Source: Minisyncoccia bacterium (GTDB lineage: Bacteria; Patescibacteriota; Minisyncoccia; UBA6257; GWB1-50-10). From it: a DNA stretch of 41,551 bases. The notes under the pieces are model-generated. The model saw nothing but the letters and a program-made list of their open reading frames with translations, did not search any database and had not been told where the DNA came from. Shown here in pieces: positions 1,456 through 41,551 of this stretch. Position numbers and translations under genes: made by a program. The stretch spans positions 1-41,551 of the forward strand of contig JBEKSI010000001.1 in NCBI GenBank assembly GCA_049997835.1, read 5' to 3'. How positions within the stretch are numbered: the first letter of the stretch is position 1; each line of letters starts with the position of its first letter.

Positions 1456-1489
1456 CTTCAAAATTTATCCATATGGATAAATTTTGAAG
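1456..1489. repeat. 34-bp perfect AT-rich palindrome, copy 1 (CTTCAAAATTTATCCATATGGATAAATTTTGAAG)
   Basis: Read directly; the two 17-nt arms are exact reverse complements. It lies 20 nt after the ndk stop and directly upstream of the -10 of the next gene. Confidence 0.95.
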
Positions 1490-3202: not shown

Positions 3203-3721
3203 ATGCTTACCAAAGACCAAGAAAAATGGATTAATCATCTTTCTAATGATGACACAATAAAAATCGTTCCTTTTGATCCGCGCAGCCAAGAAGAGTTTGA
3301 ACAAGTAAAGTCGTTGATTCAATCTAAAATCGGCTCAACGGTCAGAGTTGAACATCGCGGGGCGACCAGTCTTGGTATATCTGGCCAGAACGAGATTGAT
3401 ATTTATGTTCCGGTACCGGGAAATCTTTTTAATAGCTTTATAATCAAACTTTCAGAATTGTTTGGAAAACCTCATAGTCATTATCCCTTAGAAAGAGCGC
3501 GGTTTATTGCTTCTGATGATGGAAAAAGAATTGATGTTCATCTCGTGAATGAAGGGCATGCTAATTGGTTAAATAGTGAAAAATTTGAGAATTATCTTAA
3601 GATACATCCGGAAACCCTGGAGGAATACAGAATACTAAAAGAATCGGGCGACGGACTTAGTATTAGAAAATATTACCGGAGTAAGGCAGAATTTATTAAT
3701 AGTGTTTTGGAGAAAGCATAA
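3203..3721 (+). CDS. GrpB-family (nucleotidyltransferase-fold) protein
   Basis: VEHRGATSLGISGQNEIDIYVPV resembles the GrpB HxGSTS...IDI core, and the size is about 170 aa. Confidence 0.6.
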   Translation: MLTKDQEKWINHLSNDDTIKIVPFDPRSQEEFEQVKSLIQSKIGSTVRVEHRGATSLGISGQNEIDIYVPVPGNLFNSFIIKLSELFGKPHSHYPLERARFIASDDGKRIDVHLVNEGHANWLNSEKFENYLKIHPETLEEYRILKESGDGLSIRKYYRSKAEFINSVLEKA

Positions 3722-6095: not shown

Positions 6096-6459
6096 AAATA
6101 TTCTCTTCAAGCAACTCTTCCATATTTCCTTTTGTTTATCTAATAAAATAACAAGAGGTTTGAATTTTGTTGAGAAAACTGTCTCGCAGGCCGAGCGGGC
6201 AGGTGTCTGCCTACGGCAGACGAGCGAGGCCGAGAGCAAGTGCAAATTCCTCGCTGGGAAATTTGATAACGTGTTTTCGAAACGAAATTCAAACCCCGCA
6301 CACCAAACCCTACTGGTCTGAGAACGCGGGGAAGGACGCGAGTTTTTACATATCGCATTAGAGTTTTTGACAAAACCCGCCCAAAAGCTCTATTGTGAAC
6401 CCAGTTGTTTAGAAAATGATTTAGAAAACAAAATCACCTCTTGAGAGGAGGATTGTAAA

Positions 6460-6837
6460 ATGCTAAAAAAATCCGAGATTAAACCGGGCGTTATCTTATG
6501 CTGGGGGATAGATCACCCAATCAACAAATTCTCAATAGATTATTGGTCGGTTTTGGAAGTTGGTGAATTGTCTTTCAAGATTGAACTGTTGGGTGGAGTA
6601 AACGAGGTGAAAGAAATTCATTTTGATTCAGAGTTTTTCTCCCGCATGAAAATCTCCAATTCCGAGGAAGTATTTTTATCCTTTGTTAAAATGGAGAAAA
6701 AATTCGCTGAGGAAAGAATCGCAAAAAAGCGGGAACTGGAAGAATTTGAATCAAAATATCAGGAATTCCATGAAAAGGTAATGGAATTCAAGCGCAGGTT
6801 CAAACCTAATTCAAATCTCGCTTCGCAAGCGGCATAG
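6460..6837 (+). CDS. Hypothetical protein (charged, coiled-coil-like C-terminus)
   Basis: GAGGAGG lies 9 nt upstream of the ATG. TTGACA at 6366-6371 is a possible -35. A terminator follows. Confidence 0.5.
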   Translation: MLKKSEIKPGVILCWGIDHPINKFSIDYWSVLEVGELSFKIELLGGVNEVKEIHFDSEFFSRMKISNSEEVFLSFVKMEKKFAEERIAKKRELEEFESKYQEFHEKVMEFKRRFKPNSNLASQAA

Positions 6838-7419: not shown

Positions 7420-7977
7420 ATGGATCCCGTTAGAAATAAGCCGCCCCAAGTGGCTGCCGCCATGCCTTCGGCAGGGCGGATTTCTAACGGGATGGAAATA
7501 ATCGCGGTGCTTCACAACGTCCGGAGTTTGCACAACGTCGGTTCCATGTTCAGAACGGCGGATGCGGCCGGCGTCTCAAAAATTTATCTCTGCGGCATCA
7601 CGCCCGCTCCGACAGACAGGTTTGGAAAAGTGATTCCGCAGCTTGCGAAGGTGGCGCTCGGCGCCGAAAAAACCGTGCCTTGGGAATCGGTGAAATCGCC
7701 GCAGGCCGTTTTAAAACTCATTAAAATTTTAAAGAAAGAGGGATATAAGATATTGGCCATTGAACAATCTGAAAAATCGATTCCATATTACCAACTAAAA
7801 GCTAAAAGCTCACAGCTAAAAGCTGTTTTAATAATGGGAAATGAGGTAAAGGGTCTGCCCAAAAGCATTCTTAAGAATGCCGATAAGATACTGGAAATCC
7901 CCATGCAGGGAGATAAAGAATCGCTGAATGTGAGCGTCGCTTTCGGTATCGTAATTTTTGGTTTATTATATAGATAA
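7420..7977 (+). CDS. SpoU/TrmH-family RNA 2'-O-methyltransferase
   Basis: HNVGSMFRTADAAGV, MGNEVKGL and IPMQG..ESLNVSVA motifs. TGtTAGAAT at 7405-7413 lies 6 nt before ATG 7420. An alternative start at 7492 (MEII...) would remove a 24-aa N-terminal extension. Confidence 0.8.
   Translation: MDPVRNKPPQVAAAMPSAGRISNGMEIIAVLHNVRSLHNVGSMFRTADAAGVSKIYLCGITPAPTDRFGKVIPQLAKVALGAEKTVPWESVKSPQAVLKLIKILKKEGYKILAIEQSEKSIPYYQLKAKSSQLKAVLIMGNEVKGLPKSILKNADKILEIPMQGDKESLNVSVAFGIVIFGLLYR
7424..7493 (+). other. 70-nt hairpin embedded in the first 24 codons of the SpoU ORF
   Basis: ATCCCGTTAGAAAT..CCGCCC (7424-7446) pairs with GGGCGGATTTCTAACGGGAT (7474-7493). There is an inner CTGCCG/CGGCAG stem. Confidence 0.8.
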
Positions 7978-13311: not shown

Positions 13312-14301
13312 ATGTTAAACCCTGAATTAAAATTGAATCCCAGATTGTTCAACGAAGACGTTGAACAAAAACCAATCCGCGACGGATACGGCGACGGGCT
13401 GGTTTTGGCCGGCGAGGCGGATAAAAACGTGGTGGCGCTTTGCGCTGATTTAATTGAATCCACGCGGACGGAGGCCTTTGCGAAAAAATTTCCCGAGAGA
13501 TTTTTTGAAGTCGGGGTGGCTGAGCAAAATATGGCGACAATTGCGGCAGGTTTGGGCATTTCCGGTAAAATCCCATTTATCGCTTCTTACGCCACCTTCT
13601 CGCCGGGGCGGAATTATGAACAGATTCGCACAACGATTGCCTATAACGATTCCAACGTGAAAATCGCCGGTCATCACGCGGGCATTTCCGTGGGACCGGA
13701 TGGCGCGACGCACCAGGCGACGGAAGATATCGCGATAATGCGCGCGATGCCGAATATGTTGGTTTTCGTGCCGTGCGACGCGATTGAAGCGAAGAAAGCG
13801 ACGCTCGCCGCGGCGAAACTCTGGGGACCGGTATATTTAAGGTTCGCGAGAGAAAAATCGCCCGTGATTACGACGGAAGAAACGCCGTTTACGCCGGGTA
13901 AGGCGCAAATATTCTGGCAGTCAAAGAAGCCACAAGCGGTGATTATTGTCTGTGGTACACTCGTTTATAACGCGCTTCTCGCGGCCAAGGAGTTGGAGAA
14001 AGAAAAGATCGGCACGGTGGTTTTAAATAATGCCTCAATAAAGCCGTTGGATGAAAATATGATTTTGGATTTGGTCAAAAAATATCCCGCCGTCGTGACG
14101 GTGGAAGAACATCAGATCCACGGCGGATTGGGAGGGGCGGTAGCGGAACTCTTGGCAAAATACCGTCCGGCACCGATTGAATTTGTCGGGCTTAAAGACA
14201 CTTTCGGAGAATCCGGCGCGCCGGACGAACTTATAGAAAAATACGGCATGGGCGCGGATAATATAAAAGAGGCGGTAAAAAAGGTTTTAAAGAGAATTTA
14301 A
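13312..14301 (+). CDS. tkt: Transketolase, C-terminal (pyrimidine-binding) subunit
   Basis: FFEVGVAEQNM and ATHQATEDIAIMRAMPNM. Starts 1 nt after the stop of the N-terminal subunit gene. Confidence 0.9.
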   Translation: MLNPELKLNPRLFNEDVEQKPIRDGYGDGLVLAGEADKNVVALCADLIESTRTEAFAKKFPERFFEVGVAEQNMATIAAGLGISGKIPFIASYATFSPGRNYEQIRTTIAYNDSNVKIAGHHAGISVGPDGATHQATEDIAIMRAMPNMLVFVPCDAIEAKKATLAAAKLWGPVYLRFAREKSPVITTEETPFTPGKAQIFWQSKKPQAVIIVCGTLVYNALLAAKELEKEKIGTVVLNNASIKPLDENMILDLVKKYPAVVTVEEHQIHGGLGGAVAELLAKYRPAPIEFVGLKDTFGESGAPDELIEKYGMGADNIKEAVKKVLKRI

Positions 14302-15290
14302 TGTTTGACGTTATTACCATCGGTTCAGTGACGCGGGACGCTTTTTTTGAAGCGCCGAAATTCAAAACAATTCCGTGGAAAAAAACGCCTTCAAAAAAAG
14401 GGCTTATTTTGCCGCTTGGGGAGAAGCTTGAAGTGAATGACGTTTATTTCACGATTGGGGGAAATTCCGCGAACGCCGCCGTAACTTTCAGTCGGTTTGG
14501 TTTCAAGACGGCTTGCATCGGGAAGACGGGAGACGACCCTGGCGGCCGGGAAATCAGGCGGCGCCTGAACGCGGAAGGAGTAAACGCGAACTTACTTCTT
14601 AAGACAAGTAAGCTCGGGACGGCCTATTCAGTATTGCTTTTGAAGGACGGAGAAAGGACGATTTTAAGCTATCACGGTGCTTCCAATCTTTTTAATCTGA
14701 AAGACATTGATTTGAATAAGCTGAAAGCCAAGTGGTGGTATCTGTCGCTCGCGGGAGAATCCACGAAAATTTTCGGCGCTTTGCTTAATTTTGCGCGAAA
14801 GCACAAGATTGCGGTGGCGTTTAATCCGAGCGGTTATCATTTAAAGCATCATCGCCGGGATATTTTAAAGCGCTTAAAGAACATTTCGTTTTTAGTGTTA
14901 AATGAAGAAGAAGCGGCTATTCTTATCGGCTTACCGTTCTATAAAGAAAAGGAGGTTTTTAAAAAACTAGACGTGCTTATGCCGGGGATTCTCGCGGTTA
15001 CGAATGGCCGGAAGGGCGCGACGGTTTCCGACGGGAAATCGATTTACCGGGCGGGGATTTTCAAAGAGAGAAAATTAGCGGATAGGACGGGAGCAGGTGA
15101 CGCGTTCGGTTCCGGGTTTGTGGCGGGCTTGATGCAAAAAAACGACATTAATTTCGCGTTGCGTCTCGCTTCCGCGAACGCTACCTCCGCGGTGGAGAAA
15201 ATCGGAGCGACGGAGGGAGTGCTTACGAAACGTGAATTTGAAAATCCCAGATGGCGAAATTTCAGAATAAGCGTCAAAAAAATATCATGA
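14301..15290 (+). CDS. PfkB-family carbohydrate kinase (ribokinase-like)
   Basis: C-terminal DRTGAGDAFGSGFVAGL signature. Overlaps the tkt stop by 1 nt. Confidence 0.8.
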   Translation: MFDVITIGSVTRDAFFEAPKFKTIPWKKTPSKKGLILPLGEKLEVNDVYFTIGGNSANAAVTFSRFGFKTACIGKTGDDPGGREIRRRLNAEGVNANLLLKTSKLGTAYSVLLLKDGERTILSYHGASNLFNLKDIDLNKLKAKWWYLSLAGESTKIFGALLNFARKHKIAVAFNPSGYHLKHHRRDILKRLKNISFLVLNEEEAAILIGLPFYKEKEVFKKLDVLMPGILAVTNGRKGATVSDGKSIYRAGIFKERKLADRTGAGDAFGSGFVAGLMQKNDINFALRLASANATSAVEKIGATEGVLTKREFENPRWRNFRISVKKIS

Positions 15291-17845: not shown

Positions 17846-17879
17846 CTTCAAAATTTATCCATATGGATAAATTTTGAAG
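17846..17879. repeat. 34-bp perfect palindrome, copy 3 (identical to 1456-1489)
   Basis: CTTCAAAATTTATCCATATGGATAAATTTTGAAG lies 12 nt after the fba stop, followed by GCGCCTTTTTC. Confidence 0.95.
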
Positions 17880-17931: not shown

Positions 17932-18663
17932 ATGGAGTCACAAAATATCAATAAAATAATTTTGGAAGTCCGAGCCGGGACGGGCGGGGACGAGGCCTCG
18001 CTTTTTGCCGGCGACTTGGTGCGGATGTATCAGAAGTATTCCCAGAAAAAAGGATGGAATTTTTCCATTCTTGACGCGAGCGAAAGCGGCGCGAAGGGAT
18101 ATAAAACATTGGTTGCCGAAGTAGCCGGTACGGGAGTTTATGGCGCCTTAAAACAGGAATCCGGCGTGCATCGCGTACAAAGGGTTCCCGAAACTGAGCG
18201 GCAGGGAAGAATTCATACTTCAACGGCCTCAGTCGCGGTTCTGCCGGTCGTGGAGGCGAAAGCGGTGGATATAAAAGACAGCGATTTGGAAGTGACTTTT
18301 TCCCGCGCGGGCGGCCCCGGCGGGCAGAACGTAAATAACGTTGAAACGGCAGTGAGAATCACGCACAAGCCGACGGGTATCGTGGTTTCATGCCGGATGG
18401 AACGTTCACAGCATGCGAATCGCGAAAAGGCGATGGAAATGCTCCGTTCAATACTTTTTAACGAAGCCCAGCGCCAATCGGTTGGTTCTATATCAGAACT
18501 CCGGAACAACCAAATTGGTTCGGGTGACCGTTCCGAAAAGATACGCACTTATAATTTCCCCGATGACCGGATAACGGACCATCGCATTGGAAAAAAGTGG
18601 CACAACATAGAAAAAATTCTTGAGGGAGATTTTGAGCCCATAGTAAAAGCCTTCGCGAAGTAA
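17932..18663 (+). CDS. prfA: Class I peptide chain release factor of RF1 type, lacking N-terminal domain 1
   Basis: [36 protein letters not shown] and [23 protein letters not shown]. Only 243 aa. There is an in-frame TAA three codons upstream of the ATG. Confidence 0.85.
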
Positions 18664-18746
18664 AGCAAAATCCGGCACTCCCGCTCAGGCTGTCTCCGGG
18701 GCGACGCCCAAGTCTTAGCCTTCGCAAGAGTACCGGATTTTGCTTT
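18662..18746 (-). repeat. Structured intergenic element, copy A
   Basis: A 19-bp outer stem (AAAGCAAAATCCGGCACTC / GAGTACCGGATTTTGCTTT, one C-A that becomes G-U on the minus strand) encloses the core CCGCTCAGGCTGTCTCCGGGGCGACGCCCAAGTCTTAGCCTTCGC. Confidence 0.85.
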
Positions 18747-21267: not shown

Positions 21268-21295
21268 TTGACAAGTCGTGGGGGTTTTATATACT
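21268..21295 (+). promoter_or_regulatory. Candidate sigma70-type promoter for the 16S rRNA gene
   Basis: TTGACA (21268-21273), a 16-nt spacer, then TATACT (21290-21295). It lies about 250 nt upstream of the mature 16S 5' end. Confidence 0.5.
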
Positions 21296-21541
21296 TAAAA
21301 CCAATATGGAAGGTTATGCTTAGTTAAAAATTCAGAATAAGTTTTAAGGAGTTTAAAGACATCCGTCGCGAGTTTCTGAGAGAAACCGGAGATTCACGAG
21401 GGATGTTTTGTTCTGAGATGGCCGCGCTGATCGTAATTTGAAAAATCAATATAAACCATACGCATTAAAAATTTTTTTAGTTGTCCTGTTTATTTCTGAA
21501 ACTTTGTACGAGGAACTCGATCGAGGGTTTTTCGTACGGAG

Positions 21542-23025
<1,484 letters not shown>

Positions 23026-23115
23026 TTATTCGATACGCCATTCGGGTGTATAAATTGAGAGGTGTTGGCCGATAAACCTAAAGTCTCGGCTACAGGATGA
23101 CTAAAAAAGTTTTTA

Positions 23116-23267
23116 ATGTCTTTATCTTTGCGCTTTCCGCCACCGGCTGTCGGCGCGCTCCTGCGGCGCGCCGCAGCCTACACTCTCGGCACAAAAGTCC
23201 GACTTTTAGTCGGACACCAAGCTTTTGTGCCTCCGAGAGTTGTCGTCAAACGCAAAGATAAAGACAT
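23116..23267. repeat. 152-nt element with 17-bp perfect terminal inverted repeats and a GC-rich interior holding two hairpins
   Basis: ATGTCTTTATCTTTGCG (23116-23132) pairs with CGCAAAGATAAAGACAT (23251-23267). Inner hairpins are at 23145-23178 and 23182-23240. Confidence 0.85.
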
Positions 23268-23334: not shown

Positions 23335-23712
23335 ATGGAAGGGATAAAGAAAATTCTATTGGTTGAAGACGAGCCGATGCTTTCCAATCTGCTCCGTCAG
23401 CGGCTGGAGAGGGAGAATTTCCAGGTTACGACGGCTCACGATGGCGCCGAGGCGGTCAAGATTTTAAAACAGGAAAAACCGGACCTTATTCTTCTGGATA
23501 TCATCCTTCCCAAGATGTCCGGATTTGAGGTGATGGAAGCAATGAGGGGCGATCCTTCCATCCAAGCCGCGCCGGTAGTGGTCGTTTCAAACTTGGGGCA
23601 GGAAAGCGACGTGGAGCACGGGCAGAGCTTGGGGGCGGTTGGATATTTCGTTAAAGCTCAGATGTCCATTGAGGATCTGGTTTCTAAAATAAGAGAGTTT
23701 TTGCTACAATAA
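23335..23712 (+). CDS. Stand-alone response regulator receiver domain (CheY-like)
   Basis: ILLVEDEP, DLILLDIILPKMSGFEV, SNLG and GYFVK. TAATAT at 23323-23328 lies 6 nt before the ATG. Confidence 0.9.
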   Translation: MEGIKKILLVEDEPMLSNLLRQRLERENFQVTTAHDGAEAVKILKQEKPDLILLDIILPKMSGFEVMEAMRGDPSIQAAPVVVVSNLGQESDVEHGQSLGAVGYFVKAQMSIEDLVSKIREFLLQ

Positions 23713-23718
23713 ACGAAT

Positions 23719-24291
23719 ATGAAAAAAGGTTTTACATTAATTGAACTTCTCGTTGTCATCGCAATTCTTGCCGTCTTAGCCACGGCCGTCGTTTTGGTTT
23801 TGAATCCCGCCGAGCTTTTGAAACAGGGGAGGGACTCCACTCGCGTTTCCGACATGGCGGCCTTGAACAGCGCCATATCGCTTTGGACTGCGGATGTTTT
23901 GAATGGCACTTGGGCTGCCAGCACGAAATGCACATCTTCCGTCACCGCGCCAGCCGGGGTTTTCACTACCGCTTGCACTGTATCAACTTCCACCGTTACT
24001 ACCGGCACTGGTTGGGTGGCTTTGAATTTCGGTTCCATTGCCGCCGGTTCGCCTCTTTCAAAATTGCCGATGGATCCGAATAACGGTTCCACGAATTGCA
24101 GTGCTGGCACTCCGGCTGTTTGTGAATACGCGATTAATATGAGCAGCACGACAGGCATTTATAAATTGGCCACCCAAATGGAGAGCGCGAAGTTTCGGGC
24201 GGGCGGTAGCGCGGATGCCACATCCAACACCAAGGACGGAGGCACCAGTGATAGTTGGTACGAGGTTGGAAGCAACCTGACGGCGTGGTAA
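23719..24291 (+). CDS. Type IV pilin-like protein (prepilin N-terminal methylation motif), paralog 1
   Basis: MKKGFTLIELLVVIAILAVLA. TGcTACAAT at 23702-23710 lies 8 nt before the ATG. Confidence 0.9.
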   Translation: MKKGFTLIELLVVIAILAVLATAVVLVLNPAELLKQGRDSTRVSDMAALNSAISLWTADVLNGTWAASTKCTSSVTAPAGVFTTACTVSTSTVTTGTGWVALNFGSIAAGSPLSKLPMDPNNGSTNCSAGTPAVCEYAINMSSTTGIYKLATQMESAKFRAGGSADATSNTKDGGTSDSWYEVGSNLTAW

Positions 24292-24330: not shown

Positions 24331-24906
24331 ATGAAAAAGGGTTTTACCCTCATTGAACTTTTGGTCGTCATCGCGATTCTTGCCGTCTTAGCCACGGCCG
24401 TCGTTTTGGTTTTGAATCCCGCCGAGCTTTTGAAACAGGGTAGGGATGCCACCCGCATTTCCGACTTGGCGGCTCTAAACAGCGCTATCTCTCTTTGGGT
24501 TTCGGATGTAATCGCCGCGACCAATTGGAGCAGCGCTGCCGGTTTGCATTGCACCTATGATGCCACTCACCCGAACGCTTTTTCCGGCGCTTCCGCTTGC
24601 TCCGTTATCGCATCCACAACCGTAGATGGAACCGGCTGGGTGGCCTTGGACTTCAGATTAATTGCCGCCGGTTCGCCTCTTTCAAAATTGCCGATGGATC
24701 CGAATAACGGCGCTTCAGCGTGCAATAAGGGCTCTCCGGCTGTCTGCGAATACGCGATTAACGTAAGCAGCACGGTCGGCACTTATAAGTTGGCCACGCA
24801 GATGGAGAGCGTTAAATTTAATACCGGGGGGGGTTCCGATGTAACCTCCAAAGACGGCGGCACGGATGCGAACTGGTATGAAGTCGGAAGCAACATGAGC
24901 TTATAA
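24331..24906 (+). CDS. Type IV pilin-like protein, paralog 2
   Basis: It has the same N-terminus as paralog 1 and shares 65-nt and 50-nt identical DNA blocks with it. TGgTATAAT at 24315-24323 lies 7 nt before the ATG. Confidence 0.9.
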   Translation: MKKGFTLIELLVVIAILAVLATAVVLVLNPAELLKQGRDATRISDLAALNSAISLWVSDVIAATNWSSAAGLHCTYDATHPNAFSGASACSVIASTTVDGTGWVALDFRLIAAGSPLSKLPMDPNNGASACNKGSPAVCEYAINVSSTVGTYKLATQMESVKFNTGGGSDVTSKDGGTDANWYEVGSNMSL

Positions 24907-29420: not shown

Positions 29421-32400
29421 ATGAAAGTTTCTAAGACCACCACGAGCGTTGCCTTGATTTCAATTCTCTTTGGGACGCTTTTTTTGGGTACATGGTGGGT
29501 AGCGCTTGGCGCACCGGGCCAGTCGCCGCCGAACGGCAACCCGGTGCCCCCTACGGGTTATTTCACTCTTTCCGGATCCAATCTTTATGCCTCTTCCACT
29601 TCCTATAACCTCAGCATCGGGACGACGACTCCAGCAAGTAAATTACACATTAATTCGTCTGATGGTGATACGAGAATTACTTTAAGTGGGCCGGGAAGTT
29701 TAAATGGCGGATTGCAGTTATTTATGATTGATAGTGGTCAACGGGCAGGTTTATATCATAAAGAAAATGGTCCACTTGAATTCTATACGAATGCAACGGA
29801 AAGGATGAGAATATCAAGTGCCGGCAACGTCGGTATCGCCACTACGACACCTGCCGAGAAACTCACGGTAGTCGGCAATATCAAAATCGCAAGTTCCACT
29901 GCCGGACTGATTTTTGGAGATGGCACGACCCAGACCACAGCCGGCGCCTCGGTCATCGGCGCCGCAAACGTCTCCTCCGACGTTTTTGGTCGCCTTCAAG
30001 GCAGCGGCAACTTTGCCTTTCCCGCCGGCTTGGGTATCGGCACCTCAACCACCGCCGGCATGCCCACGAACGGACTCTATGTGAATGGAAGTGTGGGGAT
30101 TGGGACGGCGGCGCCGTTAAGGAATTTATCTATATATGCGGCATCAAGCCCAACTTTTCAAATCATCAATTCTGCCACCGGTATCACTGCTAGCGATGGT
30201 TTGATGATGCAACAAAGTGGGCTAGTCTCCTATATCGGAAACCAGGAAACGGGAGATTTGCAATTATTTGTTGATAACGGTACAGGCACTAGGATTATTC
30301 AATTGCAAACTGGAACCGGTAACGTCGGCATTGGAACAGCAACTCCTCGTGCGGCGTTGGAGGTGTGGGGAAGTAATTGGGAATCTGCACCATACTATGG
30401 AACCATTCTTATTAATGATAAGGCTGCCATGGCTGCTGGTGTGGGGGGTAGCGTTATGCTTCAAGGTAAATCTAATACTGGAAATGACGCAGTAGATGAA
30501 GCTGGTTTGATAAAAGCTTATAAAGATAATGCCACAACCGGTGATTACGGATATCGTTTGGGGTTATCATCACGCCCAAATGGTGGACCTTTAACTGAGA
30601 GATTAAGTATTTCAAGCGGCGGCAACATCGGCATCGGGACGACGGCGCCAAATAATAAACTGGAAATTAAAGGTTCAGGAGCTACAAGTATAAGAGTAAC
30701 AAATGAAGGTGTTTATCCATGGGATTTTGGAGTATCTACTGATGCTAAATTTCATTTGTTAGACGGTAATACTGGAGTAGTACAAGGTGCTTTTGTATTT
30801 GCTCCTTACAGTGAATTAACACTTGGTGTGACAGCTCAAACTGGAACTGGAAGTTTATATTCAGGCAATGGATACTTTTCCGGCAACGTCGGCATCGGGA
30901 CGACCGCGCCTTCCTCAACATTACATGTTATTGGTACTTCCACTATTGCGGGTAACGTGAAAATCACGGGCGCTAATAATGGCATTATCTTTCCGGATGC
31001 CACCATCCAAACCACCGCCGCCTCCGGTACCGGCTCAGGAGTAATCAGCGCTGCGAATGTCTCTTCGGATGTCTTCGGCCGTCTTCAGGGCAATGGCAAC
31101 TTTGCTTTTCCCGCCGGCTTGGGTATCGGCACCTCAACCACCGCCGGCATGCCCACGAACGGACTCTATGTGAATGGAAGTGTGGGGATTGGGACGGCGA
31201 GCCCTGGGGGTTTATTGAATGTAGTAAAGGATGGTGGGGCAAATGGTGTATTTTTTGATTCATACGGCAGTTCTATACAATTTAGAATGAGAAAATGGGA
31301 TGGCACAGTTGCCAGTCCTACAGCAGTCCAATCTGGCGATGAAATTGGGTATTCGCCTTGGATTCAGGGCTATGATGGAAGTACTTTAAAAACGATTGGC
31401 TATATTTTATATTCTGCCGCGGAAACTTTCAGTGGTACCCAGCTTGGCACAAGAGTGCGCTTTACCGCTGTGCCTGGCGGTCAGAATAAAACAGTGGTGG
31501 AAAATTTTATGGAATATACGACCACGGGGAATTTAGCCTTACAGCAGACTTCCGGCAACGTCGGCATCGGGACGACGGCACCAGCGGCGCAACTAACAGT
31601 TAATGGTTTAGGACAATCTGCTGCTACTTTTGATACAGCAGGTGCCTTGGGTGGATCTCTTTTATTATCTGATTCTGGAACTGGTGTTGGAAATGGCGGA
31701 GCATTAGTGTTTGGTGCTGCCAGTCAAGCTTGGAAGTTCGGTGCTATAAAGGGCTTAATTCAAGACGGAACTAATAATACATTGGGAGATATCGGTATCT
31801 TTACCAGAAAAATTAATACTGATGCCACCCTTTCACAAGTAGTCACTATAAAAAGTTCCGGCAACGTCGGCATCGGGACGTCAACCCCGGCTTATAATTT
31901 GGATGTTTTTTCATCGGGTAACGGAGCAATAAGGATTAATGCTGCGAACGCTTCAAGGTTTTTTATGAACAGCGCTTCCAATAGTTTCAGCCTCCAGAAT
32001 AATTACAACGTAGCAGGCGCGTTTGGTGTTCATAACGACACAACTAACGCCGACCCACTGATAATTTTGAATAATGGCAACGTCGGCATCGGGACGCCAA
32101 GTCCGGGATATAAACTTGATGTTTCTGGTGCTGGCGGGGCAGCTGGTCAGGTAAGAATAATAAACTCAAACAATGGTTTCCTCACTTTTGCTACTGATGC
32201 CAGCGATAATTCTCTTGTGGTGTTTGGAGCAAATGGCGTCAATAAAAATCTTGACTTTCAAAGAACAAGTACTCTTGGAGCAAACAGCGGGACATCGGTT
32301 TTGTTCTTAAAATCAGATGGCAACGTCGGCATCGGGACGAGCACTCCCGCATACAAACTGGATGTAAACGGGGATATGAACCTTGCCGCGGGGAGCGTTT

Positions 32401-34073
32401 ACAGAATAGGCGGCGTCACGCAATCTGGCTCCAGCAAATGGACCGCGGGAACGGGAGATAATATTTATAGAAGTTCCGGTTACATTAGCATCGGGACGAG
32501 CACCACCCCTGCCTACGACGTTGAAGTATATAATTCCTCGACGGCGGTTATTATGAAATTGACTAGTGCTACGGCGGGTTCATGGATTATATTAAAACCG
32601 GGCAATAGCGCGGGCCAAAAAACATGGCAGGCGGGTGCAAATTTGTATGGTTACAGCATCTACGACGCCGCGAGTTCCACCTATCGGTTTACGGTAAGTG
32701 AAGCGGGCAACGTCGGCATAGGCATGGGGACGACGGCGCCCTCGGCCTTATTGGATGTGGGCGGAGCAGGCAGAATTCGGGCGCTTTCAGGGACGGCGAC
32801 CGGGCCTTCCACCGGAAAGGGGGTTGAGATTGGGTATGCGAGTAGTACAGAACTCGGTTTTGTTGTTGCTTATGACAGAGATAACGGCGGTGTATGGAAG
32901 GATTTATCCATACAAGGCGATAATATTCGTTTCTATAATGGCGGGGCCGAAAAGGTTAGAATTGCTTCTTCCGGCTTTGTCGGCATCGGGACCAACAATC
33001 CCCAGGCAAAATTCATGGTATACGCGCCTGCCGGTTCGTCTACTATTTGGACGAGGTTCATGGGCGGTAATGACGGTGCAGACATATTCAATACTGGGGA
33101 TAATTCTCCATTCTCGATACAGTCCATGGGAGATTTCGGTGCATCGCAGTGGGTAAGTTCCATAACGTTGAATCCTTATGGCGGCAACGTCGGCATCGGG
33201 ACGACGACGGCTCCGGCTGCAAAGTTGGATGTCGCTGGTCAAGTTATTGCAGCTGGTCCCGGCGGCGTGTCGAGCTTCGTAGCGTGTTATGGTGGCGGCA
33301 ATACGTACAATATCGGCAATACTGGATGTGGTTATGCTATAAAGGATTCTGCGGGAACAGCTATTCCGTTTATAGCAAAGGCGGCTGGTGATGCATTAAA
33401 TTTTGGCACGAACGACAATACGCGCTTAAGATTTATAGCCAATGGTAATCTAGCTGGCGTGCTCAGTGCTGCTGGAAATTGGAATCTGGGACCAACTGAG
33501 CAGGATGCAACAGTCAAATTGAATGTTGAAGGCACAATCAGAATCGCGAGTTCCACCGCCGGACTGATTTTTGGAGACGGTACGACCCAAACCACCGCGG
33601 CGAGTGGCAGCGGACTTATTCGTGCGGGAGGAAATACGACCGAAGCAACAACGGTAAGCCTCACTTCAGTAGATTTGTTAACAGCGTCTGGCTTAAGCAT
33701 ACCCGCTAATGCGCATATATTAGTTCTTGCAGATGTCCGTAAAACTGCGGGAGCTGCCGCTAATGTTCAATTCGGGTTAAAACTAAATTCAACACAGGTA
33801 ATTCTTAATCAAGGTTATTTGGAGTCGGACACTAGCCGCGCTGATACGGGTCTCCTTAAGGCATATGTGGGGGCGCGGGTTACCAATTATTTGGGGAATG
33901 CATGGATGGAAATTGATTCAGCTCAGGATGGTGTGATAGCCAGGCGCACAACCGAAGGAACCGATTCTCCAACCGGTACCATAACATCTGTGACAATTAC
34001 GGCACTTACGAACAATTCTGCAGTCACTGCCGCTGCCGATGAATTACAAGTTTATTATTATGCTACACAGTAA
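29421..34073 (+). CDS. Giant (1550 aa) signal-anchored fibre-like protein with about 14 copies of a GNVGIGT(T/S)xP..KL.V motif
   Basis: Uninterrupted 4.65-kb ORF with an N-terminal hydrophobic anchor and G/T/S/N-rich composition. The motif resembles those I know from phage tail-fibre-like and surface fibre proteins. TGcTATAAT at 29402-29410 lies upstream. Confidence 0.8.
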   Translation: MKVSKTTTSVALISILFGTLFLGTWWVALGAPGQSPPNGNPVPPTGYFTLSGSNLYASSTSYNLSIGTTTPASKLHINSSDGDTRITLSGPGSLNGGLQLFMIDSGQRAGLYHKENGPLEFYTNATERMRISSAGNVGIATTTPAEKLTVVGNIKIASSTAGLIFGDGTTQTTAGASVIGAANVSSDVFGRLQGSGNFAFPAGLGIGTSTTAGMPTNGLYVNGSVGIGTAAPLRNLSIYAASSPTFQIINSATGITASDGLMMQQSGLVSYIGNQETGDLQLFVDNGTGTRIIQLQTGTGNVGIGTATPRAALEVWGSNWESAPYYGTILINDKAAMAAGVGGSVMLQGKSNTGNDAVDEAGLIKAYKDNATTGDYGYRLGLSSRPNGGPLTERLSISSGGNIGIGTTAPNNKLEIKGSGATSIRVTNEGVYPWDFGVSTDAKFHLLDGNTGVVQGAFVFAPYSELTLGVTAQTGTGSLYSGNGYFSGNVGIGTTAPSSTLHVIGTSTIAGNVKITGANNGIIFPDATIQTTAASGTGSGVISAANVSSDVFGRLQGNGNFAFPAGLGIGTSTTAGMPTNGLYVNGSVGIGTASPGGLLNVVKDGGANGVFFDSYGSSIQFRMRKWDGTVASPTAVQSGDEIGYSPWIQGYDGSTLKTIGYILYSAAETFSGTQLGTRVRFTAVPGGQNKTVVENFMEYTTTGNLALQQTSGNVGIGTTAPAAQLTVNGLGQSAATFDTAGALGGSLLLSDSGTGVGNGGALVFGAASQAWKFGAIKGLIQDGTNNTLGDIGIFTRKINTDATLSQVVTIKSSGNVGIGTSTPAYNLDVFSSGNGAIRINAANASRFFMNSASNSFSLQNNYNVAGAFGVHNDTTNADPLIILNNGNVGIGTPSPGYKLDVSGAGGAAGQVRIINSNNGFLTFATDASDNSLVVFGANGVNKNLDFQRTSTLGANSGTSVLFLKSDGNVGIGTSTPAYKLDVNGDMNLAAGSVYRIGGVTQSGSSKWTAGTGDNIYRSSGYISIGTSTTPAYDVEVYNSSTAVIMKLTSATAGSWIILKPGNSAGQKTWQAGANLYGYSIYDAASSTYRFTVSEAGNVGIGMGTTAPSALLDVGGAGRIRALSGTATGPSTGKGVEIGYASSTELGFVVAYDRDNGGVWKDLSIQGDNIRFYNGGAEKVRIASSGFVGIGTNNPQAKFMVYAPAGSSTIWTRFMGGNDGADIFNTGDNSPFSIQSMGDFGASQWVSSITLNPYGGNVGIGTTTAPAAKLDVAGQVIAAGPGGVSSFVACYGGGNTYNIGNTGCGYAIKDSAGTAIPFIAKAAGDALNFGTNDNTRLRFIANGNLAGVLSAAGNWNLGPTEQDATVKLNVEGTIRIASSTAGLIFGDGTTQTTAASGSGLIRAGGNTTEATTVSLTSVDLLTASGLSIPANAHILVLADVRKTAGAAANVQFGLKLNSTQVILNQGYLESDTSRADTGLLKAYVGARVTNYLGNAWMEIDSAQDGVIARRTTEGTDSPTGTITSVTITALTNNSAVTAAADELQVYYYATQ
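30018..30110 (+). repeat. 93-nt exact intragenic repeat, copy 1 (copy 2 at 31107-31199)
   Basis: TTTCCCGCCGGCTTGGGTATCGGCACCTCAACCACCGCCGGCATGCCCACGAACGGACTCTATGTGAATGGAAGTGTGGGGATTGGGACGGCG is present twice, both in frame. Confidence 0.9.
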
Positions 34074-34143
34074 ATCATGCGATATATTTCATGTGACAGT
34101 TTTTAGGATTTTGTGGATAAAAGCAACTTGCTATAATTAAAAC

Positions 34144-34707
34144 ATGGACACAAACAAGAGAAATATAATAATCGGCGTAGCGGTTGTGATCATTGCCGTT
34201 GCCTTTGGAGCTTCATTAAGAGGTCTGCCTACTACTACTCCTAATGGAGGACAACAGCCCGGCGCAACAACTCTTCCTGACGAGGAAAATATCCCAAAGG
34301 AACCAGTTTTCTATGGCACGCCGGAGAGCAAGGCCTTCAAAGCCGACGTACCGGTAAGTGTCACGGCGCCCACGCCGACAATCTCTACCGCTCCGGCGGC
34401 ATCAAATAATCCAAAGGGAGTTGAACAGTTGCGCACGATTGACCTCAAGGCGACTGTAAGCGGCTTCAATCCCAAGGAGATTGCCGTATATGACGGTGAT
34501 GTGGTAAGAATTATGTTCACGGCCGTTGACGGCGATTACGACATTTCCATCCCGTATACCGGCAATTACCAATTCTCACAGAAAGGACAAACTCAACCGA
34601 TTGGTCTTGGCGCTACGAAAGTCGGCACTTACGCCTTCATGTGCCGCGACCATTGCCCGGCAGGTAAAATCATAGAGGGTTCGTTCATCGTCTTGCCGCG
34701 TCCTTAG
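34144..34707 (+). CDS. Membrane-anchored cupredoxin-like domain protein (copper ligand set incomplete)
   Basis: N-terminal TM. The C-terminal beta-rich domain ends GTYAFMCRDHCPAGKIIEGSFIV. TGcTATAAT at 34129-34137 lies 6 nt before the ATG. Confidence 0.4.
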   Translation: MDTNKRNIIIGVAVVIIAVAFGASLRGLPTTTPNGGQQPGATTLPDEENIPKEPVFYGTPESKAFKADVPVSVTAPTPTISTAPAASNNPKGVEQLRTIDLKATVSGFNPKEIAVYDGDVVRIMFTAVDGDYDISIPYTGNYQFSQKGQTQPIGLGATKVGTYAFMCRDHCPAGKIIEGSFIVLPRP

Positions 34708-34708
34708 C

Positions 34709-34780
34709 GCCACCTTAGCTCAGCGGTAGAGCAACACTTTTGTAAAGTGAAGGTCCTCGGTTCAAATCCGAGAGGTGGCT
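34709..34780 (+). tRNA. tRNA-Thr (anticodon UGU), no encoded CCA
   Basis: Hand-folded cloverleaf: GCCACCT/AGGTGGC acceptor, GCTC-AGCGGTA-GAGC D-arm, anticodon loop TTTGTAA, CTCGG-TTCAAAT-CCGAG T-arm, discriminator T. Confidence 0.9.
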
Positions 34781-34781
34781 C

Positions 34782-35114
34782 ATGTTGGTGAAGAACATTA
34801 CTCGCGGGACTCTTCTTGGCGAAGATGTTTCCGTCGCTAAAACCTTCAGCGAAAAAGTCGTAGGCCTTTCGGGTAAAAAAACTCCGGCTTCACTGTTTTT
34901 TAAGACCCGCTGGGGCATCCATACTTTCGGGATGAAACTCCCGATTGATTGCGTGATTTTTGACGATGCTTATAGGGTCCGGGCGCTTGCCGAAAATCTT
35001 AGGCCAAGCCGGCTTTTCTTCTGGAACCCGTTTTATAAAAACGTTCTGGAGTTGCCGGCGGGAACTGTTTCAAAAACCGGTACGAAAGTTGGCGATATGC
35101 TGGAGCTATGTTAA
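34782..35114 (+). CDS. DUF192 domain protein
   Basis: KTRWGIHTFGMKLPIDCVIFD...VLELPAG. The ATG lies 1 nt after the tRNA discriminator base. Confidence 0.7.
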   Translation: MLVKNITRGTLLGEDVSVAKTFSEKVVGLSGKKTPASLFFKTRWGIHTFGMKLPIDCVIFDDAYRVRALAENLRPSRLFFWNPFYKNVLELPAGTVSKTGTKVGDMLELC

Positions 35115-37470: not shown

Positions 37471-37541
37471 CACCCAACGTCCCCGCTCAGGCTGTCTCCG
37501 GGGCGACGCCCAAGTCTTAGCCTTCGCGAGGACGTTGGGTG
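37471..37541 (-). repeat. Structured intergenic element, copy B
   Basis: A 12-bp perfect outer stem (CACCCAACGTCC / GGACGTTGGGTG) encloses CCGCTCAGGCTGTCTCCGGGGCGACGCCCAAGTCTTAGCCTTCGCGA. The core is identical to copy A over about 44 nt. Confidence 0.85.
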
Positions 37542-37880: not shown

Positions 37881-37948
37881 TGGGTTAGCAAACCGGTTCT
37901 TACTCATTTTTTAAAATCAAAGAAATAAAGAAAGGAGGTAGAAAAGCC

Positions 37949-38236
37949 ATGAAAACACTGCCCGGTAAGGAAACCATTAAGGATCTTGCCAGTCTGAAAC
38001 GCCAAATTGAAGAGGGTAAGGTTGTCCCGCCCGTTAAGATTATATTAGAACGGGGCGGCGACAAGATCGTCATCCCCTTTGAAAACTTGGCGGATATTAA
38101 TGTTTTTCAGGATAACAATAAGCCCGAAAGCGATTTTGCCGAGATAAAATTTATTGTAAAAGCGACAGAGCTCTGGAACATTAAAGTCGGCAAAGACGGC
38201 AAAGGAAAGCCAATTTTTCTGAAGAACCTTGAATAG
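37949..38236 (+). CDS. Hypothetical protein (95 aa)
   Basis: Strong SD (AAAGGAGG) 10 nt upstream and a terminator downstream. No recognisable family. Confidence 0.55.
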   Translation: MKTLPGKETIKDLASLKRQIEEGKVVPPVKIILERGGDKIVIPFENLADINVFQDNNKPESDFAEIKFIVKATELWNIKVGKDGKGKPIFLKNLE

Positions 38237-39000: not shown

Positions 39001-39079
39001 TTGCCTAGCGCACCCGTGAAGAAGGGTAAGACTTGGGCGTCGCCCCGGAGACACCCTAATGAACGGGTGCGCTAGGCAA
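39001..39079 (+). repeat. Structured intergenic element, copy C
   Basis: A 17-bp perfect outer stem (TTGCCTAGCGCACCCGT / ACGGGTGCGCTAGGCAA) encloses GAAGAAGGGTAAGACTTGGGCGTCGCCCCGGAGACACCCTAATGA. Confidence 0.85.
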
Positions 39080-39089
39080 GCACTGGGGC

Positions 39090-39117
39090 TTGACGCCAAA
39101 ACGGCTTTTGCTATAAT
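39090..39117 (+). promoter_or_regulatory. Strong sigma70-type promoter (extended -10)
   Basis: TTGACG (39090-39095), a 16-nt spacer ending in TGc, then TATAAT (39112-39117). Confidence 0.65.
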
Positions 39118-39226: not shown

Positions 39227-39390
39227 TTATCTTGAGCCGCGCCGAAAGGATGTTCTGAACGAACTTTCAAAAATAAATATCTGATTGAAGTAGTAACAAA
39301 ACTCAAAAAACAAGTCAGTTTTTTGAGGTAGAAATTAACAGTGCTTCACGTAGCGATTCGTGAAGCGGTCCCGAGCGAAAGCGAGGGACT

Positions 39391-41551
<2,161 letters not shown>

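What the first reader, a model, noticed from the sequence alone, without database searches (positions are those of the whole stretch)
23011..23030. The 16S rRNA 3' tail lacks the CCUCC anti-Shine-Dalgarno sequence
Helix 45 is intact (CACGCGTAG-CGGAAG-CTGTGCGTG, with the GGAA loop). After the conserved TGGA, the sequence continues ATTATTAAATTTTATT instead of the TCACCTCCTTA found in E. coli and most bacteria. I found no GATCACCTCC-like sequence in the following 300 nt. The only CCTCC (23230-23234) sits inside an unrelated hairpin. This matches the absence of SD boxes upstream of nearly all core genes in the window and their leaderless-type promoters.
Basis: partly seen in the sequence, partly recalled or inferred. 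Interest (0 to 1): 0.7.

Follow-up and report, generated by a model that had tools for sequence, protein, structure and literature searches.

The report
16S rRNA without anti-Shine-Dalgarno tail
The 16S rRNA of this ultrasmall (Parcubacteria/CPR) bacterium really lacks the sequence ribosomes normally use to dock onto mRNAs, and its genes appear to start right at the promoter instead; the loss itself was already reported for this group in 2022.

Summary
The window holds a full-length bacterial 16S gene (21544-23025). Helix 45 is intact, and the 13-nt tail reads GAAUUAUUAAAUU instead of GAUCACCUCCUUA. No canonical tail exists elsewhere in the window. The only nearby CCUCC (23230) lies outside the 24-bp pre-rRNA processing stem (21466-21489 / 23092-23115).

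The trait belongs to the lineage and is not an artefact. Ten other loci, with seven further distinct tails and down to 84% 16S identity, also lack CCUCC. They include Candidatus Jorgensenbacteria GW2011_GWA1_48_11. They share a conserved A/U tail (consensus GAUCAAUUAAAUU), and sequence conservation stops right after it.

The contig is a Minisyncoccia (Parcubacteria) MAG. Tsurumaki et al. 2022 already reported loss of the anti-SD motif in a Parcubacteria subgroup, so the core finding is known.

- SD-like 4-mers precede 10% of window genes, which is the chance level. An E. coli control gives 74%.
- -10 boxes, often TGnTATAAT, end 6-8 nt before the start codon (39 of 111 hits, p=8e-17). That spacing predicts leaderless mRNAs.
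- Other genes have stop/start overlaps.
- One ORF starts immediately after a tRNA.

I found no complementary "new SD" motif. The leaderless architecture and the conserved replacement tail did not appear in the literature I could search.

The parts
21268..21295 (+). Sigma-70-type promoter of the 16S gene (TTGACA-16-TATACT, 11 of 12 matches)
21466..21489 (+). 5' arm of the pre-16S processing stem. It pairs over 24 contiguous bp with 23092-23115.
   Evidence: (RNAduplex), checked by eye
21544..23025 (+). Full-length bacterial 16S rRNA gene, with h10 and h17 shortened as is typical of CPR
   Evidence: RF00177, model positions 1-1533, 1396.8 bits
22989..23012 (+). Helix 45: a 10-bp stem with a GGAA loop and a C-G closing pair in place of the usual U.G
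23013..23025 (+). The 13-nt 3' tail GAAUUAUUAAAUU, which replaces GAUCACCUCCUUA and has no anti-SD. The AUUAAAUU core is conserved in relatives.
23092..23115 (+). 3' arm of the pre-16S processing stem. There is no CCUCC between the tail and this arm.
23116..23267 (+). Very stable Y-shaped hairpin after the processing stem. It contains the only nearby CCUCC (23230-23234), sequestered in a stem. No equivalent was seen in the aligned part of the relatives' trailers; their full spacers were not compared.
   Evidence: I8
34132..34146 (+). Example of a leaderless-type start: TGcTATAAT, then 6 nt, then ATG of gene 34144. The same layout occurs at genes 1506, 2536, 3959, 7420, 8540, 12450, 16943, 20250(-), 23719, 24331, 24971, 35223 and 38363.
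34709..34784 (+). tRNA-Thr (34709-34781) abutting the ATG of the DUF192 gene (34782) with 0 nt between them. The preceding ORF stops 1 nt before the tRNA. This is a tRNA-punctuated, leaderless message.
   Evidence: the same arrangement in L010, with a 1-nt gap
14299..14303 (+). Example of a stop/start overlap (TAATG) between adjacent genes. Tight junctions of -4 to +7 nt also occur at 3203, 4598, 9563, 10060, 13312, 16537, 20970(-), 27915 and 35678.
6447..6462 (+). One of two exceptions in the window that carry a strong SD-like box (GGAGG, 8 nt, ATG). The other is at 37934-37951.

Best explanation
This is the single-copy-type 16S rRNA gene of a Parcubacteria (class Minisyncoccia / Paceibacteria, near Candidatus Jorgensenbacteria) CPR bacterium. 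Its lineage has lost Shine-Dalgarno:anti-Shine-Dalgarno pairing altogether.

The mature 16S most likely still ends about 13 nt after helix 45. CCUCCUUA has been replaced by a conserved A/U stretch, AUUAAAUU, which cannot pair with purine-rich SD boxes.

Start-site selection is instead achieved in three ways:
1. Leaderless mRNAs. Extended -10 promoters (TGnTATAAT, without a good -35) sit so that transcription begins at or within 1-2 nt of the A of AUG. Such promoters occur even inside the end of the preceding ORF. These mRNAs would presumably be bound directly by 70S ribosomes.
2. Termination-reinitiation at overlapping or abutting stop/start junctions.
3. At least one message whose 5' end is created by tRNA 3' processing.

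Shown here: the absence of the anti-SD, its conservation across the clade, the absence of SD enrichment, and the positional peak of -10 boxes.
Inferred: the actual transcription starts, the mature 3' end, and 70S-type initiation.
For: The tail and helix 45.

No alternative tail, and CCUCC lies outside the processing stem.

Lineage:
- NCBI names the contig's own proteins 'Minisyncoccia bacterium'.
- Gene order is shared with Jorgensenbacteria GW2011_GWA1_48_11.

The trait is clade-wide:
- All 16S genes recovered lack CCUCC in the tail: L002-L006 and L009-L012, plus L001, an independent assembly of the window organism.
- 16S identity to the window falls to 84%.
- Conservation drops right after the 13-nt tail.

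SD usage:
- SD 4-mers occur in 10% of window genes, equal to chance.
- The E. coli control gives 74%.

Leaderless signal:
- 39 of 111 -10-like hexamers end 6-8 nt before the start (p = 8e-17).
- 19 of 38 perfect TATAAT fall there.
- 18 of 39 carry the TG extension.
- The E. coli control has none.
- 92-93% of starts are ATG.

Coupling: 39 of 160 genes lie within 10 nt of the upstream same-strand gene, with peaks at -4 and -1.

tRNA-abutted ORF, conserved in L010.

Literature:
- The anti-SD motif is missing in a Parcubacteria subgroup (PMC9297842).
- Most CPR lack Era, the assembly GTPase that binds GAUCACCUCC (PMC10582724).
Against: - There are no transcript data. Transcription starts and the mature 16S 3' end are inferred from sequence only.
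- By the strict criterion only 36% of window genes and 21% of relatives' genes have a -10 box at 6-8 nt. 67 of 113 well-spaced genes have neither that nor an SD, so part of initiation is unexplained.
- A minority of genes carries perfect SD boxes at canonical spacing. This applies to about 8-12% of genes, mostly small ORFs without a recognised family. GGAGG is followed by an ATG-ORF 2-3 times more often than its permutations. That is unexpected if no anti-SD exists anywhere in the cell.
- The whole genome is not in hand, so a second rrs copy cannot be excluded.
Confidence: 0.8

Rival explanations
1. The tail AUUAAAUU is a new, lineage-specific 'anti-SD' that pairs with a complementary A/U motif (AAUUUAAU) in mRNA leaders. 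Under this reading the mechanism is retained and only the sequence pair has changed.
For: The replacement tail is strongly conserved. AUUAAAUU is identical in the window and L009-L012 at 84-87% overall 16S identity, and conservation stops right after it. That argues for a function. Upstream regions are A/U-rich.
Against: Tail-complement 5- and 6-mers are no more frequent at -60..+60 than reversed or sense-strand controls of the same composition. Hybridisation energies of the upstream regions to the real tail equal those of shuffled upstream regions (-0.55 vs -0.57 kcal/mol). Leaderless mRNAs have no upstream region to pair with. Amin et al. [quoted passage not shown]
Confidence: 0.07
2. A canonical anti-SD is still supplied elsewhere. 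Candidates are a second rrs copy, an extended or alternatively processed 3' end that reaches a downstream CCUCC, or an unrecognised intervening sequence.
For: A small set of genes has perfect SD boxes at canonical spacing, enriched 2-3 fold over permuted motifs. CCUCC-containing hairpins occur in the 16S trailers of the window (23230), of L010, and of L004 and L006.
Against: The window CCUCC lies 3' of the 24-bp processing stem and is base-paired. The trailer CCUCC is not conserved: it is absent from L009, L011, L012, L003, L002 and L005. The 16S matches the model end to end with no insertion. Protein-coding genes start 310 nt downstream. All 16S genes recovered from the clade show the same kind of tail, including one on a 635-kb contig. 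CPR genomes normally have one rRNA operon (my own knowledge, Brown et al. 2015). 90% of window genes lack any SD.
Confidence: 0.06
3. The tail is an assembly or chimera artefact, or this is a decaying pseudogene copy of 16S.
For: Metagenomic rRNA regions are prone to misassembly, and the 16S and 23S genes are unlinked here (16 kb apart).
Against: An independent ENA assembly has the identical sequence (L001). The same gene order (response regulator, 16S, L31-L25) and the same kind of tail appear in four other samples. The Rfam match is full-length and high-scoring. The gene has a strong promoter and an intact leader/trailer processing helix.
Confidence: 0.02

Closest known systems
Anti-SD-less 16S rRNA of a Parcubacteria subgroup (Tsurumaki et al. 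2022, RNA 28:1041, PMC9297842)
   Same: Same phylogenetic group (Parcubacteria / Minisyncoccia) and the same defining trait: no CCUCCU at the 16S 3' end. That paper already infers that SD helices do not form in these organisms.
   Different: The paper reports only a motif detection rate (48% in Parcubacteria) and an overlap with the uL1-lacking group. In the text I read, it does not describe the replacement tail, its conservation, or what the genes use instead of SD. uL1 status could not be tested here.
Anti-SD loss in other bacteria: Chryseobacterium, Elizabethkingia, Riemerella, Blattabacterium, some Mycoplasma, Carsonella and tiny-genome symbionts (Lim 2012; Amin 2018, PMC6107228; Nikolaeva 2020, PMC7782861)
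   Same: The 13-nt tail has no CCUCCU, SD motifs are missing from the genes, there is no compensating variant SD, and the loss is associated with reduced genomes and ribosomes.
   Different: This is a different phylum and an independent loss. Here the replacement tail is conserved across at least 15% 16S divergence, and the genes show a sharp leaderless promoter signature. The passages of those papers that my term searches returned do not mention such a signature for their organisms.
Mammalian mitochondrial translation: 12S rRNA without an anti-SD, leaderless mRNAs, tRNA punctuation
   Same: No anti-SD (cites this for mitochondria). The predicted mRNAs start at or next to AUG. One ORF begins immediately after a tRNA 3' end. 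The ribosome is reduced.
   Different: This is a bacterium with sigma-70-type -10 promoters in front of individual genes, not two polycistronic transcripts. tRNA punctuation was seen at one site only. The resemblance is one of working mode, not of descent.
Leaderless-rich prokaryotes that keep the anti-SD (Mycobacterium, Deinococcus, Streptomyces, haloarchaea)
   Same: A -10 (or TATA) box at a fixed short distance from the start codon and a strong AUG preference (my own knowledge of the field, compared).
   Different: Those organisms retain CCUCC and use SD for leadered genes. Here the anti-SD is gone.
Flavobacteriia / Bacteroidota: SD-independent initiation with the anti-SD present but occluded by bS21, bS18 and bS6
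   Same: Genome-wide lack of SD usage with A-rich upstream regions.
   Different: There the anti-SD sequence is conserved and sequestered (my own knowledge). Here it is deleted from the rRNA.

Membership tests
Bacterial SSU rRNA (Rfam RF00177) | Full-length match to the covariance model above the gathering score | tested here: met
   1396.8 bits against a gathering score of 50, model positions 1-1533
Bacterial SSU rRNA (Rfam RF00177) | Helix 45 with a GGAA loop (the KsgA dimethyl-A site) | tested here: met
   22989-23012: a 10-bp stem and a GGAA loop
Bacterial SSU rRNA (Rfam RF00177) | 3' tail GAUCACCUCCUUA carrying the anti-SD CCUCC | tested here: not met
   The tail is GAAUUAUUAAAUU. No match within 2 mismatches exists anywhere in the window.
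Anti-SD-less Parcubacteria subgroup (Tsurumaki 2022) | The organism belongs to Parcubacteria | tested here: met
   NCBI names the contig's own proteins 'Minisyncoccia bacterium'. The nearest named homologues are from Jorgensenbacteria, Paceibacterota and the Parcubacteria group, with conserved gene order.
Anti-SD-less Parcubacteria subgroup (Tsurumaki 2022) | No CCUCCU motif at the 16S 3' end | tested here: met
Anti-SD-less Parcubacteria subgroup (Tsurumaki 2022) | The genome lacks ribosomal protein uL1 (a reported overlap, not a strict criterion) | not testable with these tools
Leaderless-mRNA initiation | Promoter -10 element at a fixed distance of 6-8 nt from the start codon | tested here: met
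   14 of 39 window genes. 39 of 111 hexamer hits in 160 genes (p = 8e-17). 0 of 57 in the E. coli control.
Leaderless-mRNA initiation | No SD enrichment upstream of start codons | tested here: met
   4 of 39 genes against 3.9 expected. Mean dG is -1.85 against -6.6 kcal/mol in E. coli.
Leaderless-mRNA initiation | Mapped transcription start sites coincide with the start codon | not testable with these tools
   Needs dRNA-seq, 5' RACE or a metatranscriptome.
Variant SD:anti-SD pair | A motif complementary to the actual 16S tail, enriched at a fixed distance upstream of starts | tested here: not met
   no excess over composition-matched controls.
Bacteroidota-type occluded anti-SD | The anti-SD sequence is present in 16S | tested here: not met
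tRNA-punctuated transcripts (mitochondrial type) | An ORF start directly abuts a tRNA 3' end | tested here: met
   tRNA-Thr ends at 34781 and the ATG is at 34782. L010 has the same arrangement with a 1-nt gap. This was seen at one tRNA only, and processing itself was not tested.

The most novel reading that the evidence does not exclude
This order-level Parcubacteria clade may have converged on a mitochondrion-like mode of gene expression that has not been described for any cellular bacterial lineage. The components would be:
- a ribosome with no anti-SD at all
- most genes transcribed as individual leaderless messages from extended -10 promoters abutting AUG, some embedded in the preceding ORF
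- tRNA-punctuated 5' ends
- stop/start reinitiation
- a newly fixed, selectively maintained A/U tail (GAUCAAUUAAAUU) with a function of its own, such as rRNA maturation, factor binding or avoidance of mRNA pairing
- a small residual class of SD-led genes whose translation is unexplained

No paper in the searchable library links leaderless initiation with Parcubacteria or CPR.
Probability: 0.4. Interest if true: 0.6.

Novelty: already known. Interest (0 to 1): 0.35.

Why it matters
SD:anti-SD pairing is often treated as the default for bacterial translation initiation. A whole, environmentally abundant clade that has deleted the anti-SD shows that the default is dispensable outside organelles and insect endosymbionts.

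There are practical consequences:
- Gene callers that reward SD motifs will mis-place starts in these genomes.
- 16S annotation pipelines that search for CCUCC will mis-trim the gene.
- Heterologous expression of CPR genes in E. coli will need added ribosome-binding sites.

The sharp -10-to-AUG spacing gives a simple and testable rule for promoter and start prediction in Parcubacteria. The conserved AUUAAAUU tail is a defined target for structural and biochemical work, now that a member of Minisyncoccia has been cultured.

Tried and rejected
1. Hidden canonical tail or intervening sequence. I searched the whole window for GATCACCTCCTTA with up to 4 mismatches on the + strand and up to 3 on the - strand, and for CCTCC. 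Nothing usable was found.

2. Long-range RNAduplex of the whole leader against the whole trailer gave a meaningless over-extended structure. Shorter windows revealed the real 24-bp processing stem.

3. 'New anti-SD' hypothesis. I tested it by duplex energies and by positional k-mer counts with reversed and sense controls. There was no signal, so I rejected it.

4. The generic two-hexamer promoter scan showed no enrichment (29 found against 23 +/- 5 in shuffles). The gene promoters lack a good -35, so that scan picked out mainly the two rRNA promoters.

5. The genome contigs and metagenome-contig scans with the GGCA-helix-45 pattern returned only 2 and 3 loci. More relatives came from walking from L25 homologues.

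6. Attempts to find a more distant relative with a canonical anti-SD as a contrast failed. L015 and L016 have no 16S next to L25, and the L013 contig ends inside the 16S.

7. PHROGs, Pfam and NCBIfam gave no function for the SD-led minority genes.

8. No supplementary files are held for PMC9297842, so I could not check which Parcubacteria lineages it lists.

9. The uL1 status of this genome could not be tested.

Full report
**1. The observation**

The window carries a complete bacterial 16S rRNA gene at 21544-23025 on the + strand (Rfam RF00177, 1396.8 bits, model positions 1-1533). A 23S gene starts 16 kb further on at 39385, and tRNA-Thr and tRNA-Trp lie between them.

The Rfam alignment of the 3' end shows helix 45 intact:
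- stem at 22989-22998 and 23003-23012
- GGAA loop at 22999-23002
- a C-G closing pair instead of the usual U.G

The 13 nt that follow read GAAUUAUUAAAUU, where the consensus is GAUcACCUCCUUu.

One search shows that no 13-mer in the whole window comes within 2 mismatches of GATCACCTCCTTA on either strand. On the + strand between 21000 and 25000 the only CCTCC are at 23230 and 24845, and the latter is inside a coding region.

**2. Could the anti-SD be supplied by processing?**

The 16S leader and trailer form a 24-bp uninterrupted helix, 21466-21489 with 23092-23115. This is the classical RNase III-type processing stem. The mature 3' end must therefore lie between 23013 and 23091, and that stretch has no CCUCC.

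The CCUCC at 23230 lies 3' of the stem. It sits inside a very stable Y-shaped hairpin at 23116-23267 (z = -9.6, I8) and is base-paired there. A protein-coding gene for a response regulator starts at 23335.

The gene has a strong promoter, TTGACA-16-TATACT, at 21268-21295. It is an expressed-looking, intact rRNA gene with no room for an intervening sequence.

**3. Who is it, and is the trait shared?**

The contig's own CTP synthase and L25 are in NCBI as 'MAG... [Minisyncoccia bacterium]' on a 41551-bp contig. Minisyncoccia is the class that now holds Parcubacteria/Paceibacteria. The nearest named homologues are from Candidatus Jorgensenbacteria, Paceibacterota and the 'Parcubacteria group'. 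Gene order is shared with Jorgensenbacteria GW2011_GWA1_48_11 over more than 20 kb.

A pattern scan for the unusual GGCA start of helix 45 found two genome loci and three metagenome loci. Walking from L25 homologues gave four more loci with the same gene order: response regulator, 16S, L31-L25-SLT, RF1.

All of these 16S genes lack CCUCC in the tail:

| Locus | Tail |
|---|---|
| window | GAAUUAUUAAAUU |
| L010 | GAUUAAUUAAAUU |
| L009 (Jorgensenbacteria) | GAUCUAUUAAAUU |
| L011, L012 | GAUCAAUUAAAUU |
| L003 | GAUCAAUUAAACU |
| L002 | GAUAUAUUUAAUU |
| L004, L005, L006 | GACACUUACAUUUAAAG |

An independent ENA assembly of the same organism (L001) is identical to the window. 16S identity between the window and L009, L011 and L012 is only 84-85%, yet AUUAAAUU is invariant among them. 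In the alignment, conservation collapses immediately after the 13-nt tail.

Two inferences follow. First, the loss is an old, clade-wide trait and not an artefact. Second, the mature 3' end is probably at the canonical position, and the new A/U tail is itself under selection.

**4. What do the genes use instead?**

I took 39 complete ORFs of the window (Pfam checks).

SD usage:
- GGAG, GAGG or AGGA occurs at -20..-4 in 4 of 39 genes, against 3.9 expected from random positions.
- The mean duplex energy with the canonical anti-SD is -1.85 kcal/mol.
- The same script on 57 annotated E. coli genes gives 74% SD-positive and -6.6 kcal/mol, so the test has power.
- The 121 genes of the related loci give 18% and -3.2 kcal/mol.

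Promoter position:
- -10-like hexamers (TANNNT with at least 5 of 6 matches to TATAAT) pile up so that 6-8 nt separate them from the start codon.
- This holds for 14 of 39 window genes.
- Over 160 genes, 39 of 111 hexamer hits within 40 nt fall at that spacing (binomial p = 8e-17), as do 19 of 38 perfect TATAAT. Eighteen of the 39 carry the TG of an extended -10.
- The E. coli control shows none at that spacing.
- Six to eight nt is the normal distance from a -10 box to the transcription start. These promoters therefore predict mRNAs that begin at, or 1-2 nt before, the A of AUG.
- Several such promoters lie inside the 3' end of the preceding ORF, with gaps of 4-6 nt, for example at genes 16943, 23719 and 7983.
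- A good -35 is absent, which is why the generic two-hexamer scan shows no enrichment and picks out mainly the rRNA promoters.

Other features:
- 92-93% of starts are ATG.
- Thirty-nine of 160 genes lie within 10 nt of the upstream same-strand gene, with peaks at -4 (ATGA) and -1 (TAATG). That geometry fits termination-reinitiation.
- tRNA-Thr (34709-34781) is flanked by a stop codon 1 nt upstream and by the ATG of a DUF192 gene 0 nt downstream. The same tRNA-ORF junction, with a 1-nt gap, is conserved in L010. RNase Z cleavage there would create a leaderless message, as in mitochondria.

**5. Rivals**

A 'new anti-SD' is not supported.
- K-mers complementary to the real tail are no more frequent near starts than reversed or sense controls.
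- Duplex energies equal those of shuffled upstream regions.

A second rrs copy or an extended 3' end cannot be formally excluded without the full genome. However, all 16S genes recovered from the clade, including one on a 635-kb contig, show the same kind of tail.

One observation does not fit neatly. About 8-12% of genes, mostly small ORFs of unknown family, have perfect SD boxes at canonical spacing. Examples are 6447-6462 and 37934-37951 in the window, and AAGGAGGT-6-ATG in L011 and L012. GGAGG is followed by an ATG-ORF 2-3 times more often than its permutations. They may be recent imports, an effect of gene callers that favour SD motifs, or a purine-rich signal read in another way. No family assignment was obtained.

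By my strict criterion, 67 of 113 well-spaced genes have neither signal. Leaderless initiation and coupling are therefore the best-supported modes, but not a complete account.

**6. Comparison with what is known**

- Tsurumaki et al. 2022 (PMC9297842) report that the CCTCCT motif is detected in only 48% of Parcubacteria 16S genes. They add that the motif-less lineages overlap the uL1-lacking group, and that SD helices are thought not to form there.
- Loss of the anti-SD is also known in some Bacteroidota, Mycoplasma, Carsonella and other tiny-genome symbionts. There it goes with the absence of SD motifs and with no compensating variant SD (PMC6107228; PMC7782861).
- Era, the assembly GTPase that binds GAUCACCUCC, has been lost by most CPR (PMC10582724). 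This removes a second constraint on the tail. That link is my inference.
- I found no paper in the searchable library that links leaderless initiation to Parcubacteria or CPR. The 2022 paper describes neither the conserved replacement tail nor the gene-start architecture. This part may be new, but paywalled literature was not searchable.

**7. Verdict**

The feature itself is already known for this lineage.

Moderate residual interest lies in four points:
- the sharp leaderless promoter signature
- the tRNA-punctuated start
- the conserved AUUAAAUU tail
- the unexplained SD-led minority of genes

All four need transcript-level confirmation.

Noticed in passing
window 17932-18663; also L009 12246-12986, L010 12147-12878, L011 12221-12952, L012 12238-12975, L013 12697-13440: The release factor RF1 is only 243-247 aa. 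It matches the RF1 models from about position 100 onward, so the whole N-terminal domain 1 is missing. Only 98 nt of intergenic DNA lie upstream. The short form is conserved in all relatives.
   Followed up: partly
window 34705-34784; L010 734-808: tRNA-Thr is squeezed between a stop codon (1 nt before) and the ATG of a DUF192 gene (0 nt after). The tRNA-ATG junction is conserved in L010. This looks like mitochondrial-style tRNA punctuation producing a leaderless mRNA.
   Followed up: partly
window 6447-6462 and 37934-37951; L011 13743-14590 region, L012 13050-13895, L007 5082-5346, L013 874, 5843 and 12375: A small minority of genes in these anti-SD-less genomes carries perfect SD boxes (AAGGAGG) at canonical spacing. 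They are mostly small ORFs with no recognised family. GGAGG is followed by an ATG-ORF 9% of the time, against 2-5% for its permutations. This is unexplained.
   Followed up: partly
window 1456-1489, 2032-2065, 17846-17879: Three copies of a 34-nt perfect palindrome, CTTCAA(A/T)ATTTATCCATATGGATAAAT(A/T)TTGAAG. Two flank the gene at 1506-2024 (winged-helix plus PaaX/Cas2-like domain). One sits upstream of the RF1 gene. It could be an operator or a terminator element.
   Followed up: no
window 18662-18746, 37482-37530, 39001-39079: A 49-nt G+C-rich repeat (98% identical copies, one of them inverted), embedded in longer hairpins at 18662-18746 and 39001-39079 (not checked for the copy at 37482-37530). 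The copies lie after the RF1 gene, before tRNA-Trp and just before the 23S promoter and leader (D11, I2, I3, I6, I9).
   Followed up: no
window 23116-23267: A 150-nt Y-shaped, extremely stable hairpin immediately after the 16S processing stem (z = -9.6). No equivalent was seen in the aligned part of the relatives' trailers, but their full 16S-to-response-regulator spacers were not compared. It has no Rfam match. It may be a terminator or an inserted element.
   Followed up: partly
L010 about 7860-7895 (- strand); L004 and L006 trailers: In two other lineages the 16S trailer contains a hairpin made of CCUCCU paired with GGAGGG, 25-75 nt after the tail. It is not conserved in L005, L009, L011 or L012. 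It may be a relic or a coincidence.
   Followed up: no
window 21544-23025 vs 39385-41551; promoters at 21268-21295 and 39090-39117: The 16S and 23S genes are unlinked, 16 kb apart. Type IV pilus genes, a 1550-aa protein and two tRNAs lie between them. Each rRNA gene has its own near-consensus sigma-70 promoter.
   Followed up: partly
window 29421-34073: A 1550-aa ORF with no Pfam hit, built from at least 13 copies of a repeat whose DNA core is GGCAACGTCGGCATCGGGAC. It lies directly downstream of the pilus assembly genes (D1, D2).
   Followed up: no
window 23719-24291 and 24331-24906: Tandem duplicated pilin-like genes (N_methyl motif). The DNA repeats are 77-87% identical, and each copy has its own -10 box 7-8 nt before the ATG.
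   Followed up: no
L011 7033-8637, L012: The 16S genes of L011 and L012 are about 100-120 nt longer than that of the window (1602 and 1582 nt against 1479 nt between the same landmarks). This suggests an insertion typical of CPR 16S.
   Followed up: no
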